A stretch of 5,230 bases of DNA from a virus (Duplodnaviria; Heunggongvirae; Uroviricota; Caudoviricetes). Location: IMG/VR virus record IMGVR_UViG_3300014691_000037; one strand, written 5' to 3'. Of the stretch, positions 204 through 5,230 are shown piece after piece; position 1 is the stretch's first letter; the number at the start of each line of letters is the position of its first letter. The notes under the pieces are model-generated. The model did not search any database. It was not told where the DNA came from and worked only from the letters and a program-made list of their open reading frames with translations. Both the position numbers and the translations under genes were made by a program.

Positions 204-611
204 TTATTTTATTGATTTATTTTTACGCGCTTTAAGCATTTCTTCGAAGAGTTTGTTGAAGTTTTCTACTCTTGCGCGCATTTCAGACAGCAAGGCTTCC
301 TGCTCGGAAGATGGAAGAGCATCGAATAATTCGATCAATTCTTTGTGGTTGGGAGTTAGCTCTGTTTCCACATGAAGTTCTTGTGCAGGCACTGGTGCCT
401 TGTCTTCGTCACCAAACATTAGCCATGTAGGTGAGCACTTCAGAGCATCCGCTAAAGCAAACAATCGTTTTCCGACTGGCTGGGTTTCGTCTCTTTCCCA
501 TTGTGAAATTGTGACGTGAGCAACTCCAGCGAGGCGCGCAGCTTCTCGTTGTGTTAAGCGTAATTCTTTTCGTCGCGCCAGAACTCGCTGGCCTAGGGTT
601 CTTGTATCCAT
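204..611 (-). CDS. dicA: Prophage immunity repressor, XRE-family helix-turn-helix, DicA-like (135 aa)
   Basis: Complete minus-strand ORF (ATG 611..609, TAA 206..204). N-terminal HTH with the XRE/Cro-C1 signature (...QREAARLAGVAHVTISQWERDETQP...). Length and C-terminal segments (...CSPTWLMFGDEDK..., ...MRARVENFNKLFEEMLKAR...) match my recollection of E. coli Qin-prophage DicA. Divergent from a small Cro-like gene. No strong Shine-Dalgarno upstream. Confidence 0.85.
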   Translation of the reverse strand: MDTRTLGQRVLARRKELRLTQREAARLAGVAHVTISQWERDETQPVGKRLFALADALKCSPTWLMFGDEDKAPVPAQELHVETELTPNHKELIELFDALPSSEQEALLSEMRARVENFNKLFEEMLKARKNKSIK

Positions 612-677: not shown

Positions 678-691
678 AAGAGGGGGCTTTG

Positions 692-919
692 ATGCTTAAA
701 GTTGACGCAATTACTTTTTTTGGCAGCAAAACAAAGCTTGCCAATGCCGCAGGAGTGAGACTGGCAAGTGTTGCTGCTTGGGGGATACTGGTTCCTGAAG
801 GTCGCGCGATGCGTCTACAGGAGGCATCTGGCGGGGAGCTTCAGTATGATCCCAAAGTTTATGACGAATATCGTAAGACGAAGCGGGCGGGGCGGTTGAA
901 CAATGAAAATCACTCCTGA
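692..919 (+). CDS. dicC: Small Cro-type regulator, DicC-like (75 aa from ATG 692; the ORF track begins at TTG 689)
   Basis: ATG 692 lies 5 nt after AGGGGG; stop TGA 917..919. Small protein divergently transcribed from the DicA-like repressor, with the size and position of DicC/Cro. The dicC label rests on synteny and size plus imperfect recall of the sequence. Confidence 0.65.
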   Translation: MLKVDAITFFGSKTKLANAAGVRLASVAAWGILVPEGRAMRLQEASGGELQYDPKVYDEYRKTKRAGRLNNENHS

Positions 920-1376
920 ACAGGCTCGTGAGGCTCTGGATGCCTGGATATGTCGACCAGGAATGACACAGGAGCAGGCGACGATATTAATCACTGAAGC
1001 ATTCTGGGCTTTGAAAGAGCGCCCGAACATCGATGTTCAGCGTGTCACAGATGAAGGTGGCGCGGTTGATCAGCGAGCGCTTGGCGTTAATCGAGTGAAG
1101 ATATTCGAACGCTGGAAGGCTATCGACACCAGGGATAAGCGTGAAAAGTTCACGGCGCTAGTGCCTGCAATTATGGAGGCTATCCGGATTAATGATTTCA
1201 GGTTGTATCGTGAAATTAGTGACGGAAAAAGCATCACGTACATGATCGCCGGGTTAAACAAAGAATATGGCGATGTGGTGGAGTCCGGACTGCTTTTTGC
1301 TGATCCTGCCGTAGTGGATCGTGAAACTGACGAACTTATAGAAAAAGCAANNNNNNNNNNNNNNNNNTGGTTATAA
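903..1376 (+). CDS. Prophage early-region protein of unknown function (position of YdaT/cII-type genes); C-terminus interrupted by an assembly gap
   Basis: ATG 903 overlaps the upstream stop by 17 nt. Backbone-like G+C. The 17-N run (1351..1367) falls 7 codons before the apparent TAA (1374..1376), so the true frame, length and end are uncertain. Confidence 0.6.
   Translation: MKITPEQAREALDAWICRPGMTQEQATILITEAFWALKERPNIDVQRVTDEGGAVDQRALGVNRVKIFERWKAIDTRDKREKFTALVPAIMEAIRINDFRLYREISDGKSITYMIAGLNKEYGDVVESGLLFADPAVVDRETDELIEKAXXXXXXWL
1351..1367. other. Assembly gap / masked bases (17 N)
   Basis: Literal run of n characters in the sequence. Confidence 0.95.
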
Positions 1377-1390
1377 ACACACAGCTTGCG

Positions 1391-2305
1391 ATGAAGATTG
1401 GCTTAAATGAAGCCATTGTGTTGCAGCAGTTGCATTACTGGTTGAGAGATACCAATTCCGGCATGGAATGTGATGGTGTTCGCTGGATTTACAACACAAC
1501 GGAACAATGGCTGGAACAGTTCCCATTCTGGTCAGAGTCAACGTTAAAGCGCGCGTTTGCAAGTCTGAAAACGCTGGGGCTTTTGCGTTGTGAAAAGCTC
1601 AATAAATCAAAGCGCGATATGACCAATTTCTACACGATTAACTATGGGAGCGAGCTTTTAGATGATGGCAAATTGAGCGAATCCATCGGTTCAAAATGCG
1701 CCGCTCCATCAGGTCAAAATGACACGATGGAAGAGGTCAAAATGAAACGCTCCATTGATTCAAAACGACCCAATGTCATCGGGTCAAAATGGCCCGATGA
1801 TCCTACAGAGAATACAACAGAGATTACTACAGAGAATAAAAACACTTTTCGTCCGGAAGCTTCGCAACCGGACCCGCAGACGGCTGAACAGGATTTTTTA
1901 ATCCGGCACCCTGGCGCAGTTGTGTTTAGTGCGAAAAAACGCCAGTGGGGTAGCCAGGAGGATCTGGCGTGTGCGCAGTGGATATGGGGGCGGATCGTGG
2001 GTCTCTACGAACAGGCCGCCAGTGATGATGGCGAGATCATGCGACCAAAAGAGCCTAACTGGACTGTCTGGGCCAATGATGTGCGCACAATGCGGATGCT
2101 GGATGGCAGAAGCCACAGACAAATTTGCGAAATGTTTGGTCGGGTACAGCGGGATCCATTCTGGGTAAAAAACATCATGAGCCCGTCAAAACTCCGCGAA
2201 AAATGGGACGAACTGGTCATCCGCCTGGGACGTTCACCTGTACAGCGTTGTGTGAATCATATTTCTGAACCGGATACAGAAATTCCGCCTGGTTTCAGAG
2301 GATAA
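1391..2305 (+). CDS. Phage replication initiator (lambda O-like organisation: N-terminal winged-helix DNA-binding region, origin inside the gene, distinct C-terminal domain)
   Basis: 304-codon ORF. N-terminus (NEAIVLQQLHYWL...WIYNTTEQWLEQFPFWSESTLKRAFASLKTLGLL) resembles winged-helix domains of phage replication initiators. The middle of the gene carries five iterons and an AT-rich repeat block, exactly as lambda ori sits inside O. No Shine-Dalgarno precedes ATG 1391 and the gap lies 24 nt upstream, so the start is uncertain. Confidence 0.8.
   Translation: MKIGLNEAIVLQQLHYWLRDTNSGMECDGVRWIYNTTEQWLEQFPFWSESTLKRAFASLKTLGLLRCEKLNKSKRDMTNFYTINYGSELLDDGKLSESIGSKCAAPSGQNDTMEEVKMKRSIDSKRPNVIGSKWPDDPTENTTEITTENKNTFRPEASQPDPQTAEQDFLIRHPGAVVFSAKKRQWGSQEDLACAQWIWGRIVGLYEQAASDDGEIMRPKEPNWTVWANDVRTMRMLDGRSHRQICEMFGRVQRDPFWVKNIMSPSKLREKWDELVIRLGRSPVQRCVNHISEPDTEIPPGFRG
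1684..1791. repeat. Iteron array: five direct repeats with core (G)GTCAAAATG at ~23-bp periodicity (putative ori iterons)
   Basis: Read directly: TCAAAATG at 1691, 1714, 1737 and 1784, and TCAAAACG at 1760; spacings 23, 23, 23 and 24 bp. Flanking consensus is roughly CATCnGG-TCAAAATG-nnnCG. The repeats encode a repetitive linker (…SIGSKCAAPSGQNDTMEEVKMKRSIDSKRPNVIGSKWPDD…). Confidence 0.75.
1804..1850. repeat. Three 12-bp periodic ACAGAGA(A/T)TA repeats plus an A-rich tract (putative DNA-unwinding element of the origin)
   Basis: Read directly: ACAGAGA begins at 1805, 1817 and 1829, followed by AATAAAAACAC. Located immediately after the iterons; encodes low-complexity TENTTEITTENKNT. Confidence 0.55.
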
Positions 2306-2345: not shown

Positions 2346-2768
2346 GTGGCAAAAGTTTTTACACAAGAAGAGCGGGAAAAAATTAAAGGGCAGGTGGTGG
2401 AACTCGTGCGCCAGAGCGGTCGTGAGACGTTACGGCAACTGGAAGCTAAAACAGGTGCGACTAGATATCTGATGAGCGTTCTTGCCAGAGAGCTGGTAGC
2501 CAGTGGCGATGTATACAACTCCGGCTACGGGTTATTCCCGTCTGAACAGGCGCGTAAGGACTGGCAAAACGCCCGCAAAAAACTCTCGAGGGCAAAGGTG
2601 AAGAAACCTGCTGTGGTTGATCCGGACCTTATCTGGTCGTTACCAGACGGAGAAATACGTCGTTATGACAGGCACCAAAATATAATTTGCTGTGAGTGCC
2701 GTAATAGCGAAGTTATGCAGCGCATCTTGGCATTTTATCAGGGAAATGTTTGGTATTTATTAAAGTAA
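2346..2768 (+). CDS. Hypothetical 140-aa protein (GTG start), basic with a C-terminal Cys cluster
   Basis: GTG 2346 lies 5 nt after AGGGGG (2335..2340); stop TAA 2766..2768. Backbone-like G+C (34/60 at 2401..2460). I do not recognise the family. Confidence 0.6.
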   Translation: MAKVFTQEEREKIKGQVVELVRQSGRETLRQLEAKTGATRYLMSVLARELVASGDVYNSGYGLFPSEQARKDWQNARKKLSRAKVKKPAVVDPDLIWSLPDGEIRRYDRHQNIICCECRNSEVMQRILAFYQGNVWYLLK

Positions 2769-2799
2769 CGAGATTAAAGAGCATTAGTTCAGATATTAA

Positions 2800-2828
2800 T
2801 TGACACTTCGGTGGCACAGGGCTAGAAC
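2800..2828 (+). promoter_or_regulatory. Candidate sigma70 promoter for the cargo gene: TTGACA, 17-bp spacer, TAGAAC
   Basis: Read directly: perfect -35 hexamer at 2800..2805 and a 4/6 -10 match at 2823..2828, in the AT-rich region upstream of the 583-aa ORF. Would give a ~200-nt leader. Confidence 0.3.
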
Positions 2829-3035
2829 TACTATGGTTTGCAGCCTTGTGCCAAGAGCGGACAGTTTGAAAAATAACGGTATTATCCAGCGACAGGTACA
2901 TAGTAGTATCTGTCTTTATAAAATTTTCAGCCTTGCAATGATTTTATGGACAAAAGAAGGTTAGACATAAACCATCCCAAATGGATATGATTACTGTGTT
3001 AGTAAACACTCATGATTATTACGGAGGGCTATTAA

Positions 3036-4787
3036 GTGCTTGATTATTTATCAAAGCTTCCTTTACCGGCTGAGCAAATACCACAGGGTTTAAAGGACCT
3101 ATTATTTGTTGAAGACAATTCTAACCCCCAGCGAGAAGTTACTGTAACCCATCATTACGAAAGAAATAAGTATCAAGATGACTATGATTACACTCATATG
3201 ATCATGGCCGTAGTTCCTGAGAATGATGTTGCAAATCTAAGTGTGTTACGTGAATCCCGTGACGGTGTCGTCACATTTTCCACTCAGGACTGTACAGAGA
3301 AAGGTGGAGCTTGGGGTACAGATATATCTATCTCCGGTTATGGGTATATTGTAGCTTCTTGGGGTTCAAGTCTTCACTACTCCTTTTTGTTGGCCGAAGA
3401 TGTCTGGATGAAACTGGGATTAAAACCAAGGCTCATAGGGGATGATGAACAAAAAGTAATTTTTGATGAGGTTTCTTCGCCATCATATGGAGTCGTGCAA
3501 GGCGATGTCTCAAGAGAATATCATTTCAAAAGCAACAAAGATATTAAATGGACAATGAGGAATGATTACCTCAGAAAATATTTATGGATGAAAGGTTGTG
3601 TTGGAGTAAAAGTTTTTTTCTTCGAAGCCTATATCGAACGAACTAAAGAGGTACTCGGACTCTTATCAGGTTCTAATCACTTTAGAATCGAACTTCCTTG
3701 GATTGAATTTGAAATAGTTGACCATACAGATAGGATATTGCTGCAAGCATGGGGAACTGTTCAATCTGTTCAGCCAGAGCTTTGCTCTGAATTAGATGTC
3801 AACACATTAGTATGGCCCGGTCACAAGTCACCGATAACAATGTCGGGAGCTACCGATTATCGTAGTGGCGAATACGTATATGTTGATGATGCTTTTCTTA
3901 CTAAATATGAAAAAGATAAGACATACGAAGCCATTCCATTTTTTTATGGCAATCACTATCATGCAGATCCTAGCTATGGCGGGCAATGGGCATTTAGAGG
4001 CTGTACTAGAGTCGGTAGGAACTTAGTGAAAATATATTTTTATGATCTTTACCAAGGAGTTCCAGAAAAGGAAATATATCATGTGTTTGATTATGCGAAA
4101 GACCAAAGCCTTATTGATACTAATTCATTAGATAATGAGCATATTGTTTCTAAGACTTTTAGATTTGCTAGAGAACTAACTGAGCTTAATGGAAATCTAG
4201 TGTCTCTAGGTAGAGTTTTAGATGTTCCCCTATCGAGTTCTGATATTTTTGAATACAACAGAGACGAACTAGATGAAGAAGGCATTAGAAATTATCCTGT
4301 ACTGCAAAAGCTTGCTCATGTAGCCTCAATCGATATGCAAGAGCAAGATTTCCTAGCTAGATGCAAGACTATAAACGAGATCATTACTAAAATTAAAACT
4401 GGTTCATTGAAGAAATTAAGTATTGCTATGGGGGTGAAGGCTGAGGATATTGAAAGATTGCAAACGCTAAAATTATTGCAAGGAATATTAAACCTTACAA
4501 GTGTTATTAATGAGCAAAATGAAGAGCAATCCGCGCTAAAACATGCCAATGAACTTGCAAAGTATAATTCACCCAATCATACATTAGCAGCTCTATTTAT
4601 AAATAATGACTTGAGGAACGCTGAAGCTCATGAAGCAGTCAATAAATCCATTGAACATCTAGCTAGTCTTGGTTTTGATAGCGCAACTTTGGCATCCGGT
4701 TATAGCCATGCTTTAGATTTTATATTTGATCAAATTATTGAGAGCTTGAGGAGTTTTAATTCGACTTTAAATGAAGTCCTGCACTAA
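3036..4787 (+). CDS. Large hypothetical protein (583 aa) on an AT-rich foreign insert; candidate single-gene phage-defence/abortive-infection protein with a C-terminal HEPN-like R-N-x-x-x-H motif
   Basis: GTG 3036 lies 6 nt after GGAGGG (3024..3029); stop TAA 4785..4787. G+C about one third by hand count (19/60 at 4081..4140) against ~60% in the phage backbone (36/60 at 1021..1080). Aromatic-rich N-terminal ~400 aa not recognised; helical C-terminal ~160 aa contains LRNAEAHE (residues 526-533). Confidence 0.85.
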   Translation: MLDYLSKLPLPAEQIPQGLKDLLFVEDNSNPQREVTVTHHYERNKYQDDYDYTHMIMAVVPENDVANLSVLRESRDGVVTFSTQDCTEKGGAWGTDISISGYGYIVASWGSSLHYSFLLAEDVWMKLGLKPRLIGDDEQKVIFDEVSSPSYGVVQGDVSREYHFKSNKDIKWTMRNDYLRKYLWMKGCVGVKVFFFEAYIERTKEVLGLLSGSNHFRIELPWIEFEIVDHTDRILLQAWGTVQSVQPELCSELDVNTLVWPGHKSPITMSGATDYRSGEYVYVDDAFLTKYEKDKTYEAIPFFYGNHYHADPSYGGQWAFRGCTRVGRNLVKIYFYDLYQGVPEKEIYHVFDYAKDQSLIDTNSLDNEHIVSKTFRFARELTELNGNLVSLGRVLDVPLSSSDIFEYNRDELDEEGIRNYPVLQKLAHVASIDMQEQDFLARCKTINEIITKIKTGSLKKLSIAMGVKAEDIERLQTLKLLQGILNLTSVINEQNEEQSALKHANELAKYNSPNHTLAALFINNDLRNAEAHEAVNKSIEHLASLGFDSATLASGYSHALDFIFDQIIESLRSFNSTLNEVLH

Positions 4788-4818
4788 TGTTAAAGTGCAA
4801 TATAAGATTTAGATGATG

Positions 4819-4873
4819 CCTTAAGGTTTTTTATTCAGTTAATACTTATTGGTTCTATTAATAAGTAATTTTT
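4819..4873 (+). terminator. Weak terminator-like elements after the cargo gene: CCTTAAGG followed by TTTTTT, then an AT-rich 8-bp stem followed by ATTTTTAT
   Basis: Read directly: palindrome 4819..4826 followed by T6 (4827..4832); TACTTATT (4843..4850) pairs with AATAAGTA (4860..4867), followed by a T-run at 4869..4873. The stems are short and AT-rich, so termination efficiency is doubtful. Confidence 0.2.
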
Positions 4874-5150
4874 ATGTCTTCTGAAATATTTGTGCCGATA
4901 ACAGGGTCATTAGTAATATATTCAATAGTTACGGGCTAATTGCCAGTGTTCGCCTTTCGCTCAAAGCGGACTAGAAGGTTAGCTTACGTCGGACTTGGCG
5001 TATTTAAAGAAGAGTTGGTGGTGACTGGTTGTTGTGTTCCATTTCTACAGAACAAAATCACAGAAACTATACCCAATAGTTGTATTGAAGCACTGACGAG
5101 ACAGCCTCATATTTATCAGGGCAGGTGTATATCCAATACAGGAGGTTGTC

Positions 5151-5230
5151 GTGCTGGTCCTCAAATGTGCGCTAGCTATTGCGGCTGTAATGGCAATTTA
5201 TTGTCTTGCTGTTGTTCTTACGGATCGCCT
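5151..5230 (+). CDS. 5'-truncated-by-window small hydrophobic protein, possible Hok/Gef-type type I toxin (N-terminal 26 codons visible)
   Basis: GTG 5151 lies 5 nt after AGGAGG (5140..5145). The visible peptide VLVLKCALAIAAVMAIYCLAVVLTDR is one transmembrane-like helix ending in charged residues, as in Hok-family toxins. The ORF runs off the window edge, so it is absent from the ORF track. Confidence 0.35.
   Translation, partial: MLVLKCALAIAAVMAIYCLAVVLTDR

What the first reader, a model, noticed from the sequence alone, without database searches (positions are those of the whole stretch)
4614..4631. Single HEPN-like R-N-x-x-x-H motif in the helical C-terminal region of the cargo protein
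Codons 4614..4631 encode RNAEAH (R527 to H531) within LAALFINNDLRNAEAHEAVNKSIEHL. This matches the canonical Rx4-6H signature of HEPN RNase domains, as established for Abi toxins, Cas13 and RnlA/LsoA-type proteins. The surrounding ~160 residues look alpha-helical by composition. This suggests an architecture of N-terminal sensor plus C-terminal RNase effector. A six-residue motif on its own can occur by chance.
Basis: inference. Interest (0 to 1): 0.6.

Follow-up and report, generated by a model that had tools for sequence, protein, structure and literature searches.

The report
Conserved R-x4-H site in prophage cargo protein
The RNAEAH motif is real and its arginine and histidine never change across a large, uncharacterised family of mobile-element-borne proteins. 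It is therefore almost certainly a functional site, probably of a phage-defence RNase, but the tools could not show that the domain is a true HEPN fold, and relatives are labelled in databases as a quorum-quenching enzyme (BpiB05).

Summary
The motif lies in a 583-aa ORF (3036..4787).

A loose Rx4-6H motif is expected by chance about 2.3 times per protein of this composition. Conservation settles it: in 59 homologs, down to about 20% identity, only 9 columns are invariant. R527 and H532 are two of them, and the only two in the C-terminal domain.

AlphaFold2 gives an all-helical C-terminal domain (residues 362-583, pLDDT 92). R527 ends one helix and H532 starts the next, which is the canonical HEPN position.

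HEPN membership is not established:
- No Pfam, PADLOC or NCBIfam model hits the family.
- hhalign against an MtlR-type HEPN family aligns R/H in register, but without significance.

The gene is a self-contained 2.1-kb cassette. It sits in the Qin-like prophage slot that holds relBE in K-12. Homologs lie in satellites, ICEs, plasmids and Tn7-like elements, directly beside Gabija and Ietas.

Two depositors name homologs "BpiB05", a published metagenomic AHL lactonase.

Best reading: a stand-alone abortive-infection protein with a HEPN-like RNase effector (confidence about 0.4).

The parts
4614..4631 (+). RNAEAH motif: R527-N-A-E-A-H532. R and H are invariant across the family.
   Evidence: sequence; invariance in 38 and 59 homologs; R527 is the last residue of helix 515-527, H532 the first residue of helix 532-544.
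3036..4787 (+). Cargo ORF, 583 aa (66.6 kDa), GTG start. BpiB05-family protein. No Pfam, NCBIfam or PADLOC model, and no significant PHROG match.
   Evidence: The N-terminus and length match those of homologs.
4119..4784 (+). C-terminal all-helical domain (residues 362-583). Conserved polar set: R442, R527, H532, D561, D565.
   Evidence: AlphaFold2 domain model pLDDT 92.3, pTM 0.89; conservation. In the 150 best hits listed of an exhaustive profile search (300 at E<=0.001), the domain always lies at the C-terminus of ~585-aa proteins or in shorter, presumably fragmentary, proteins.
3036..3773 (+). N-terminal beta-rich region N1 (residues 1-246). It is the most variable part (26% mean pairwise identity) and the candidate sensor.
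3774..4118 (+). Region N2 (residues 247-361), the most conserved module (36% identity). Invariant: W260, D285, L288, W318, R325, R328. Near-invariant: E292.
4716..4730 (+). D561...D565 (ALDxxxD) on the last long helix. Near-invariant (98% and 95%). Possibly part of the same site as R527/H532.
2843..4991 (+). Mobile single-gene cassette (ORF plus about 190 bp upstream and about 180-200 bp downstream), 35-40% GC against 45-52% for the prophage backbone.
   Evidence: blastn. A Qin-like prophage without the gene (L001) matches the window only up to 2863 and again from 4992. A proA-adjacent island in another enterobacterium (L018) matches 2843-4969 at 93% nt identity. Yersinia (L002) matches 2934-4816 at 85%. 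GC profile. No terminal repeats.
2962..2991 (+). Sigma-70-like promoter candidate (TAGACA-18-TATGAT, 10/12) inside the cassette. RBS GGAGGG at 3023-3028.
   Evidence: a consensus match only; the number of such sites is not above the shuffle expectation.

Best explanation
The hexapeptide is the invariant core of the C-terminal helical domain of a one-gene cassette protein (BpiB05 family). The cassette sits in a variable accessory slot of an E. coli Qin-like lambdoid prophage.

Most likely the protein is a stand-alone, abortive-infection-type anti-phage protein. R527 and H532 would then form the catalytic dyad of a highly divergent HEPN-like, metal-independent endoribonuclease.

Proposed sequence of events:
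1. The gene is expressed from its own promoter in the lysogen. The protein is inert because its single R-x4-H half-site is unpaired or occluded.
2. The N-terminal beta-rich region (N1 variable, N2 conserved) detects an infection cue.
3. Oligomerisation or a conformational change pairs two R-x4-H half-sites, as in other HEPN enzymes.
4. The enzyme cuts cellular or phage RNA (tRNA, rRNA or mRNA) and stops phage production.

Shown here:
- the motif and its absolute conservation;
- its helix-end/helix-start position in a confident model;
- the fixed two-part architecture;
- the cassette-like mobility;
- residence in mobile elements and next to known defence systems, without a conserved partner gene.

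Inferred: RNase chemistry, HEPN ancestry, the sensor role of the N-terminus, activation by pairing, and the defence phenotype.
For: - Conservation. R527 and H532 are 2 of 9 invariant columns in 59 homologs at about 20-94% identity, and the only invariant ones in the C-domain.
- Position. R527 ends helix 515-527 and H532 begins helix 532-544. [quoted passage not shown]
- Local pattern. h-x-x-h-x-x-h-R-N-x-x-[AGS]-H mirrors an MtlR/DUF4145-type HEPN family (IRKIRNEFGH). The best hhalign local alignment puts R on R and H on H.
- Context in this window. The cassette occupies the slot between the DUF977 gene and hokD. In K-12 Qin, the corresponding interval (ydfX/ydfW to hokD) carries flxA, ydfV and relBE.
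- Context of homologs:
  - a P4-like satellite;
  - a Paracoccus prophage;
  - a Shewanella island with DRT RT_UG17+SLATT;
  - a Tn7-like element directly beside IetA/IetS;
  - a B. pseudomallei ICE island directly beside Gabija (GajA 3.9e-70, GajB 1.3e-54) and type I R-M;
  - a P. aeruginosa ICE with HigB/Zeta toxins;
  - a plasmid.
- Partner genes. No neighbour is conserved across these loci.
- Distribution. Rare and patchy: 128 of 185,579 species genomes, across several phyla.
- Precedent. [quoted passage not shown]
Against: - No HEPN Pfam, PADLOC or NCBIfam model detects the protein, 58 relatives or their consensus sequences.
- hhalign to the one HEPN family tested gives probability below 0.5% (E 0.13-0.25).
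- The residue after R is not consistently polar.
- No deeply conserved acidic residue lies upstream of the motif in the C-domain. Instead, two near-invariant Asp residues lie downstream (D561, D565), which would suit a metal site.
- The domain is about 220 residues, far larger than a minimal HEPN.
- Homologs are named BpiB05 after a protein reported to hydrolyse 3-oxo-C8-HSL in a metal-dependent way.
- No family member is in PADLOC-DB 2.0.0, and none was found in 50,697 sequenced phage records.
Confidence: 0.4

Rival explanations
1. The protein is a defence or conflict protein, but the R527/H532 site is not HEPN. Together with R442, D561 and D565 it would form a different catalytic or ligand-binding centre, for example a metal-dependent hydrolase or nuclease site, or a nucleotide-signal pocket. 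The toxic effector could instead be the highly conserved N2 module (D285, E292, R325, R328), or an Avs3-like nuclease-type fold in the N-terminal region.
For: - Fold searches do not single out HEPN, and no HEPN profile matches.
- D561 and D565 (i, i+4 on the last helix) are 95-98% conserved, next to an invariant His.
- N2 is the most conserved module (36% against 28% for the C-domain) and holds 6 of the 9 invariant columns.
- The defence-type contexts listed for the best explanation apply equally here.
Against: - The exact R-x4-H spacing is kept in all 59 sequences of A3, apparently without indels between R and H, and it sits at a helix-loop-helix junction. That is the HEPN signature, and it is unusual as a metal site because Arg is not a ligand.
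- No PD-(D/E)xK or other nuclease motif is recognisable in the N-terminal region.
Confidence: 0.3
2. The protein is what databases call it: a BpiB05-type N-acyl-homoserine-lactone hydrolase (quorum quenching). H532, D561 and D565 (with R527 and R442) would form a metal-assisted lactonase site. The gene would be an accessory trait that lets the carrier interfere with neighbours' signalling.
For: - Two independent depositors name homologs 'BpiB05' or 'putative bpiB05'. These are AFI89596.1 in Pectobacterium parmentieri (in the cluster about 80% identical to the window protein) and AJZ56144.1 in Paraburkholderia fungorum (587 aa, 37% identity over the full length, E 6e-156).
- Reviews list BpiB05 as a 587-aa, 70-kDa soil-metagenome protein. 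It has no known motif, needs a metal ion, and degrades 3-oxo-C8-HSL (PMC3355433; PMC3794736; PMC4942472). The family length is 583-590 aa.
- A His plus two Asp is a plausible metal site.
Against: - Homology to the actual BpiB05 sequence (ABU51109.1) could not be checked, and the original paper is not held.
- The family lives in prophage accessory slots, satellites, ICEs, Tn7-like elements and defence islands, beside Gabija, Ietas, DRT, R-M and toxin-antitoxin genes. It also occurs in hosts such as E. coli and Klebsiella, which, from my own knowledge, make no AHLs. This fits immunity better than signal degradation.
- No resemblance to any known lactonase fold (metallo-beta-lactamase, PTE, alpha/beta-hydrolase) was found.
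- Reduced motility, pyocyanin and biofilm on heterologous expression could equally come from a leaky toxic effector (inference).
Confidence: 0.15
3. The motif is a chance occurrence with no special role.
For: A loose Rx4-6H is expected 2.3 times in a protein of this composition, and the strict form arises in 14% of shuffles.
Against: R527 and H532 are invariant in 59 sequences at about 20% identity, where only 9 of 583 columns are invariant. The other loose match (R33) is not conserved.
Confidence: 0.01

Closest known systems
BpiB05 (soil-metagenome 'AHL hydrolase', Bijtenhoorn et al. 2011; ABU51109.1)
   Same: Homologs of the window protein carry this name in two genome records. The reported length is 587 aa and 70 kDa, against 583-590 aa for the family. 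It is described as unlike any known lactonase. This is probably the only family member ever studied experimentally.
   Different: The published function (quorum quenching, metal-dependent lactone hydrolysis) is unrelated to RNA cleavage or phage defence. No structure, active-site residues or genomic context were reported in the texts I could read.
HepS (solo HEPN abortive-infection protein of Salmonella prophage Gifsy-1; PMC13043305)
   Same: It is a single gene without a partner. It lies in the accessory region downstream of the replication genes of a lambdoid prophage. It has one Rx4H per protomer, is inactive by default, and is proposed to be activated by a phage protein.
HEPN superfamily, MtlR/DUF4145-like clade (PF05068; e.g. 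the 168-aa protein next to the Enterobacter homolog)
   Same: The same local signature, h..h..hRNxx[AG]H at a helix end. The best hhalign alignment is in register at R and H.
   Different: The similarity is statistically insignificant (probability below 0.5%). The rest of the domains do not align. A single Pfam MtlR hit in one relative (E 0.017) maps to residues 368-437, not to the motif, and is at chance level for 59 queries.
Two-part sensor+HEPN defence proteins (RnlA/LsoA, AbiF/AbiD-type Abi proteins, S. aureus Tha)
   Same: The architecture of a non-catalytic N-terminal region plus a C-terminal helical Rx4-6H domain, and carriage on prophages and plasmids. This comparison rests on my own knowledge of these families plus PMC3710099, PMC8266594 and PMC11087260.
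   Different: No sequence or fold match to any of them was found. No antitoxin-like partner such as RnlB is conserved next to the gene.
SeAvs3 (PDB 8dgc, antiviral STAND NTPase)
   Different: There is no STAND ATPase or P-loop, no TPR array, 9% identity and no sequence-level similarity. The matched SeAvs3 domain is unknown because no aligned ranges were returned.

Membership tests
HEPN superfamily | Conserved Rx4-6H motif | tested here: met
   R-x4-H is invariant in 38 and 59 homologs, with no indel between R and H.
HEPN superfamily | [quoted passage not shown] | tested here: met
   In the AlphaFold2 models (pLDDT 87.6 and 92.3), R527 is the last residue of helix 515-527 and H532 the first of helix 532-544. 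The criterion comes from PMC3710099.
HEPN superfamily | Polar residue (N/D/H) directly after the R | tested here: inconclusive
   It is N in the window protein and close relatives. It is I/V in many 37-42% relatives and Q/K/T/S/V in distant ones.
HEPN superfamily | Conserved upstream acidic residue (Ex3[KR]) in helix-2 | tested here: inconclusive
   E368 and E448 are invariant only within the closer set. In the deep alignment, no acidic residue upstream of the motif in the C-domain reaches 90%. Instead D561 and D565 downstream are 95-98% conserved. The 3D proximity of these residues could not be inspected.
HEPN superfamily | Four-helix up-down HEPN core recognisable by structure comparison | tested here: inconclusive
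   [not shown]
HEPN superfamily | Sequence or profile similarity to an established HEPN family | tested here: not met
   Pfam, NCBIfam and PADLOC were run on the protein; Pfam and PADLOC on all 59 members of A3; and Pfam on five consensus sequences. No HEPN model was found. hhalign against the MtlR-like HEPN alignment gives probability 0.1-0.4%. Only one HEPN family could be tested profile-to-profile.
HEPN superfamily | Metal-independent endoRNase activity dependent on R and H | not testable with these tools
   This needs biochemistry.
BpiB05 family (reported AHL hydrolase) | Sequence homology to BpiB05 (ABU51109.1) | tested here: inconclusive
   The sequence could not be retrieved. The support is indirect. 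Depositor names appear on AFI89596.1 (80%-identity cluster) and on P. fungorum P0333 (37% identity, E 6e-156). The reported length of 587 aa matches.
BpiB05 family (reported AHL hydrolase) | Hydrolysis of N-acyl-homoserine lactones | not testable with these tools
   Known only from second-hand descriptions in reviews. The original paper is not held.
Stand-alone prophage/MGE-borne abortive-infection gene (HepS-like class) | Sits in variable accessory slots of mobile elements or in defence islands | tested here: met
   Contexts found: a Qin-like prophage slot, a P4-like satellite, a prophage, ICEs, a Tn7-like element and a plasmid. Homologs lie adjacent to Gabija, Ietas, DRT, type I R-M and toxin-antitoxin genes.
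Stand-alone prophage/MGE-borne abortive-infection gene (HepS-like class) | No conserved partner gene (single-gene system) | tested here: met
   The neighbours differ in all of about 12 independent contexts. The transferable unit is a 2.1-kb one-gene cassette.
Stand-alone prophage/MGE-borne abortive-infection gene (HepS-like class) | Protects against phage by killing or arresting the infected cell | not testable with these tools
   This needs plaque and infection-dynamics assays.
Any defence protein family in PADLOC-DB 2.0.0 | Match to a PADLOC model | tested here: not met
   The window protein has 0 hits. Among the 59 members there are only single chance-level hits (best E 0.007; Cas13d 0.014 in one member).

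The most novel reading that the evidence does not exclude
The BpiB05 family, with hundreds of sequence clusters across several bacterial phyla, is a previously unrecognised single-protein immune sensor-effector. It would have been mis-filed for 15 years as a quorum-quenching lactonase. Its C-terminal domain would be a new, very divergent HEPN clade, or a convergent R/H RNase. Its N-terminal region would be a new phage-sensing module structurally related to part of Avs3. The gene moves between prophages, satellites, ICEs and transposons as a promoter-containing one-gene cassette.
Probability: 0.3. Interest if true: 0.7.

Novelty: new variant of a known kind. Interest (0 to 1): 0.55.

Why it matters
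If the reading is right, this adds a widespread, compact (one gene, 2.1 kb) anti-phage module. It has an unknown sensing domain and an RNase domain too diverged for current HEPN models, so it shows what the catalogues miss.

It would also revise the only functional claim attached to the family (BpiB05 as an AHL lactonase). That claim is repeated in many quorum-quenching reviews.

The invariant R527/H532, and the second conserved cluster D285/R325/R328, give immediate, cheap mutational tests.

If the lactonase claim is right instead, a quorum-quenching enzyme that travels with prophages and defence islands would be unusual in its own way.

Tried and rejected
1. Direct family assignment. Pfam, NCBIfam, PHROGs, PADLOC and PDB sequence searches of the protein gave nothing. 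Profile searches of the PDB with A2 and A3 gave only coiled-coil or armadillo noise.

2. Pfam on all 59 members. One MtlR (a HEPN family) hit appeared at E 0.017. It was traced to P0173 residues 368-437, not to the motif, and is at chance level for 59 queries, so I rejected it as evidence. A single Cas13d PADLOC hit (E 0.014) is equally at chance level and was not followed.

3. Domain shuffling test. An exhaustive HMM search with the C-domain against 1.8 billion representatives gave 300 hits. In the 150 best hits listed, the domain always lies at the C-terminus of ~585-aa proteins or in shorter, presumably fragmentary, proteins. No alternative N-terminal partner was seen that could have tied the domain to known HEPN architectures. 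Hits 151-300 are not visible.

4. hhalign of the C-domain against the neighbouring MtlR-like HEPN protein and against its family alignment was not significant.

5. Pfam on HMM consensus sequences of the near, distant and whole family gave no HEPN family.

All three counted fold searches were then used, so the N-terminal region could not be searched on its own.

7. Retrieving HepS for a direct comparison failed. The Gifsy-1 record NC_010392 (LT2) has no ORF with R100/H105.

8. The BpiB05 and Schipper papers are not held.

9. Terminal repeats of the cassette: none convincing. Rfam: no RNA family in the window. Upx as a relative was rejected; it has more than 1,170 residues and a PD-(D/E)xK effector.

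10. The search for related loci with the deep alignment A3 failed because there was no conserved stretch. It was repeated with A1.
Full report
**1. What is there**

The window is the early region of an E. coli Qin-like lambdoid prophage. In order it holds:
- a cI/DicA-like HTH repressor (204..611, minus strand);
- a P22-Cro-like gene (689..919);
- a YdaT-like gene (903..1376);
- a replication-type ORF (1391..2305);
- a DUF977 gene (2346..2768);
- after a 267-bp spacer, a 583-aa ORF at 3036..4787.

Contigs carrying exactly this protein show the rest of the prophage. Upstream of the window lie the integrase, exonuclease and dicB. hokD, rem, ydfU, the Q antiterminator and the lysis genes follow downstream.

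Codons 4614..4631 read AGG AAC GCT GAA GCT CAT = RNAEAH. With the GTG start at 3036 (GGAGGG 7 nt upstream; same N-terminus and length as homologs) these are R527 to H532.

**2. Is it more than chance?**

Not on its face. Shuffles of this protein contain a loose Rx4-6H in 91% of cases (mean 2.3 per protein) and the strict R[NHDQ]x3H in 14%. The decisive evidence is comparative.

- The protein has hundreds of full-length homologs. There are 205 clusters at E<=1e-3 with the window protein as query and 680 at E<=1e-20 with a betaproteobacterial member as query.
- In 38 sequences down to 37% identity, D525, L526, R527 and H532 are invariant.
- In 59 sequences down to about 20% identity, only 9 columns remain invariant: L129, W260, D285, L288, W318, R325, R328, R527 and H532.
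- There is never an indel between R and H.
- R527 and H532 are the only invariant residues of the C-terminal 220 residues. R442, D561 and D565 follow at 95-98%.

The site is clearly functional.

**3. Structure**

AlphaFold2 on the 38-sequence alignment gives a confident model (mean pLDDT 87.6). It has a beta-rich N-terminal region (about 1-360) and an all-helical C-terminal domain (362-583). The C-domain alone models at pLDDT 92.3 and pTM 0.89.

R527 is the last residue of helix 515-527 and H532 is the first residue of helix 532-544. Anantharaman et al. [quoted passage not shown] The predicted position fits that description.

Fold searches do not single out HEPN:
- Foldseek against the PDB has no hit better than E 0.5.

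These scores are compatible with a very divergent HEPN, but equally with any up-down helical bundle.

**4. Sequence-level HEPN tests**

- Pfam, NCBIfam and PADLOC find nothing in the protein. PHROGs gives only two non-significant matches (E 0.24 and 0.45).
- Scanning all 59 members against Pfam gives only scattered single hits. One is to MtlR, a HEPN family, but it maps to residues 368-437 of one distant member. At E 0.017 over 59 queries it is at chance level.
- Consensus sequences do no better.
- I built an alignment of an MtlR/DUF4145-type HEPN family, seeded by the gene that happens to lie upstream of the Enterobacter homolog (motif IRNAFGH). With the deep C-domain alignment, hhalign's best local alignment puts our LFxLNDLRxxdAH on IxxIRKIRNEFGH, with R on R and H on H. 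The probability is only 0.25-0.44%.

The resemblance is therefore limited to the motif and its amphipathic helix.

Other departures from the HEPN pattern:
- The residue after R is N only in the closer relatives.
- No deeply conserved upstream acidic residue is evident.
- Two near-invariant aspartates lie downstream.

**5. Architecture**

An exhaustive profile search with the C-domain against 1.84 billion representative proteins gives 300 hits. In the 150 best hits listed, the domain always lies at the C-terminus of ~585-aa proteins or in shorter, presumably fragmentary, proteins. The two parts therefore travel together and are not seen shuffled.

Within the deep alignment, N1 (1-246) is the most variable part (26% mean pairwise identity). 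N2 (247-361) is the most conserved (36%). The C-domain is at 28%.

**6. Genomic behaviour**

The gene is a cassette.
- A related E. coli prophage lacking it matches the window only up to 2863 and again from 4992.
- A proA-adjacent island in another enterobacterium matches 2843-4969 at 93% nucleotide identity.
- Yersinia matches 2934-4816 at 85%.
- The cassette is 35-40% GC, against 45-52% for the backbone.
- In K-12 Qin, the corresponding interval (ydfX/ydfW to hokD) holds flxA, ydfV and the relBE toxin-antitoxin pair.
- Other complete E. coli genomes carry different small genes there.

Homologs lie in these settings:
- a P4-like satellite next to a HEPN gene;
- inside a Paracoccus prophage next to a PIN gene;
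- a Shewanella island with HNH genes and a DRT RT_UG17+SLATT pair;
- a Tn7-like element directly after IetA/IetS;
- a B. pseudomallei ICE island directly after Gabija (GajA 3.9e-70, GajB 1.3e-54) and a type I R-M system, followed by a Schlafen/AlbA_2 gene;
- a P. aeruginosa ICE with HigB and Zeta toxins;
- a Paraburkholderia plasmid.

No neighbour is shared between these contexts.

Only 128 of 185,579 species-representative genomes carry a detectable relative. They are scattered over Proteobacteria, Nitrospirales, Acidobacteriota, a cyanobacterium and others. No sequenced phage in INPHARED has it.

This is the typical footprint of a horizontally mobile, single-gene conflict system.

**7. An unexpected label**

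One member of the 80%-identity cluster (AFI89596.1, Pectobacterium parmentieri) is named "BpiB05". A 587-aa Paraburkholderia fungorum plasmid protein is named "putative bpiB05"; it is 37% identical to the window protein over the full length (E 6e-156).

BpiB05 is a soil-metagenome protein reported in 2011 as a novel hydrolase acting on N-acyl-homoserine lactones. Reviews list it as 587 aa and 70 kDa, with no known motif and a metal requirement. They say it degrades 3-oxo-C8-HSL and reduces motility, pyocyanin and biofilm in P. aeruginosa (PMC3355433, PMC3794736, PMC4942472). Its accession is ABU51109.1.

I could not read the original paper or fetch the sequence. Membership therefore rests on the depositors' names and the matching length.

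If the label is correct, the only experimental claim for this family is quorum quenching, not RNA cleavage. An invariant His with two nearby Asp would suit a metal-assisted hydrolase. Against that reading stand the mobile-element and defence-island contexts, and carriage by hosts that make no AHLs (the latter from my own knowledge).

**8. Verdict**

The HEPN interpretation is plausible but only partly supported. The motif, its conservation and its secondary-structure position are met. Fold-level and profile-level membership are not demonstrated.

My best explanation, at about 0.4, is a stand-alone abortive-infection protein whose C-terminal domain is a very divergent HEPN-like RNase. It would be activated when the N-terminal region senses infection. 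HepS of Gifsy-1 is the closest conceptual precedent (PMC13043305).

The alternatives are:
- a defence protein with a non-HEPN active site, or with an N-terminal effector (about 0.3);
- a genuine BpiB05-type lactonase (about 0.15);
- chance, which is excluded.

The family is absent from Pfam, NCBIfam and PADLOC-DB 2.0.0, so I rate it a new variant of a known kind.

Noticed in passing
[not shown]
   Followed up: partly
window 3774-4118 (residues 247-361): This segment, not the R-x4-H domain, is the most conserved part of the protein. It holds 6 of the 9 invariant columns (W260, D285, L288, W318, R325, R328). It may be a second active or binding site, or the interface that controls the C-domain.
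   Followed up: partly
window 1351-1367: A run of 17 N interrupts the YdaT-like ORF. In a contig with the same prophage (L014 8251-8332), 82 bp stand there, so this is an assembly gap or mask, not biology.
   Followed up: yes
window 5151-5230 (continues in L014 to 12205): A small ORF of 29 codons encodes a very hydrophobic peptide (MLVLKCALAIAAVMAIYCLAVVLTDRLSD). It has an AGGAGG ribosome-binding site 5 nt upstream of its GTG start. It lies in the conserved flank between the cassette and hokD. It is not called as a gene in the contigs examined and may be a small membrane peptide.
   Followed up: partly
window 2769-2863 and 4992-5230; L023 (K-12 Qin): The interval between the DUF977/ydfX-ydfW genes and hokD is a swap site in Qin-like prophages. 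It holds relBE+flxA+ydfV in K-12, two small hypothetical genes in strain Es_ST80 (L001), and the 583-aa cassette here. 1,689 of 5,426 complete E. coli genomes match the flanks, and none carries the cassette.
   Followed up: partly
L012 7277-7783 (Enterobacter P4-like satellite): The gene directly upstream of the Enterobacter homolog is a 168-aa MtlR/DUF4145-type HEPN protein with an intact IRNAFGH motif. It matches no PADLOC model and may be another uncatalogued solo HEPN defence gene in a P4 hotspot.
   Followed up: partly
L025 5295-8008 and L006 6250-7923: In one Gammaproteobacteria-like genome, the homolog overlaps by 8 nt the end of a 571-aa gene with no Pfam or PADLOC hit, within an apparent 4-gene operon. 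In Vibrio, a 557-aa zinc-ribbon, transposase-like ORF precedes it. Neither neighbour is conserved elsewhere.
   Followed up: no
L109 3614-7849 (P. aeruginosa ICE): A 1,411-aa protein directly upstream of the P. aeruginosa homolog has only a weak PADLOC candidate hit (PDC-S73, E 1.3e-6). It may be another uncharacterised defence candidate.
   Followed up: no
cluster members AFI89596.1 + AFI89597.1 (Pectobacterium parmentieri), P0312 (Erwinia rhapontici, 459 aa): Several genomes carry the gene split or truncated at about residue 459 (459 aa + 124 aa). That separates the R-x4-H region from the rest and suggests occasional inactivation of the C-terminal part.
   Followed up: no
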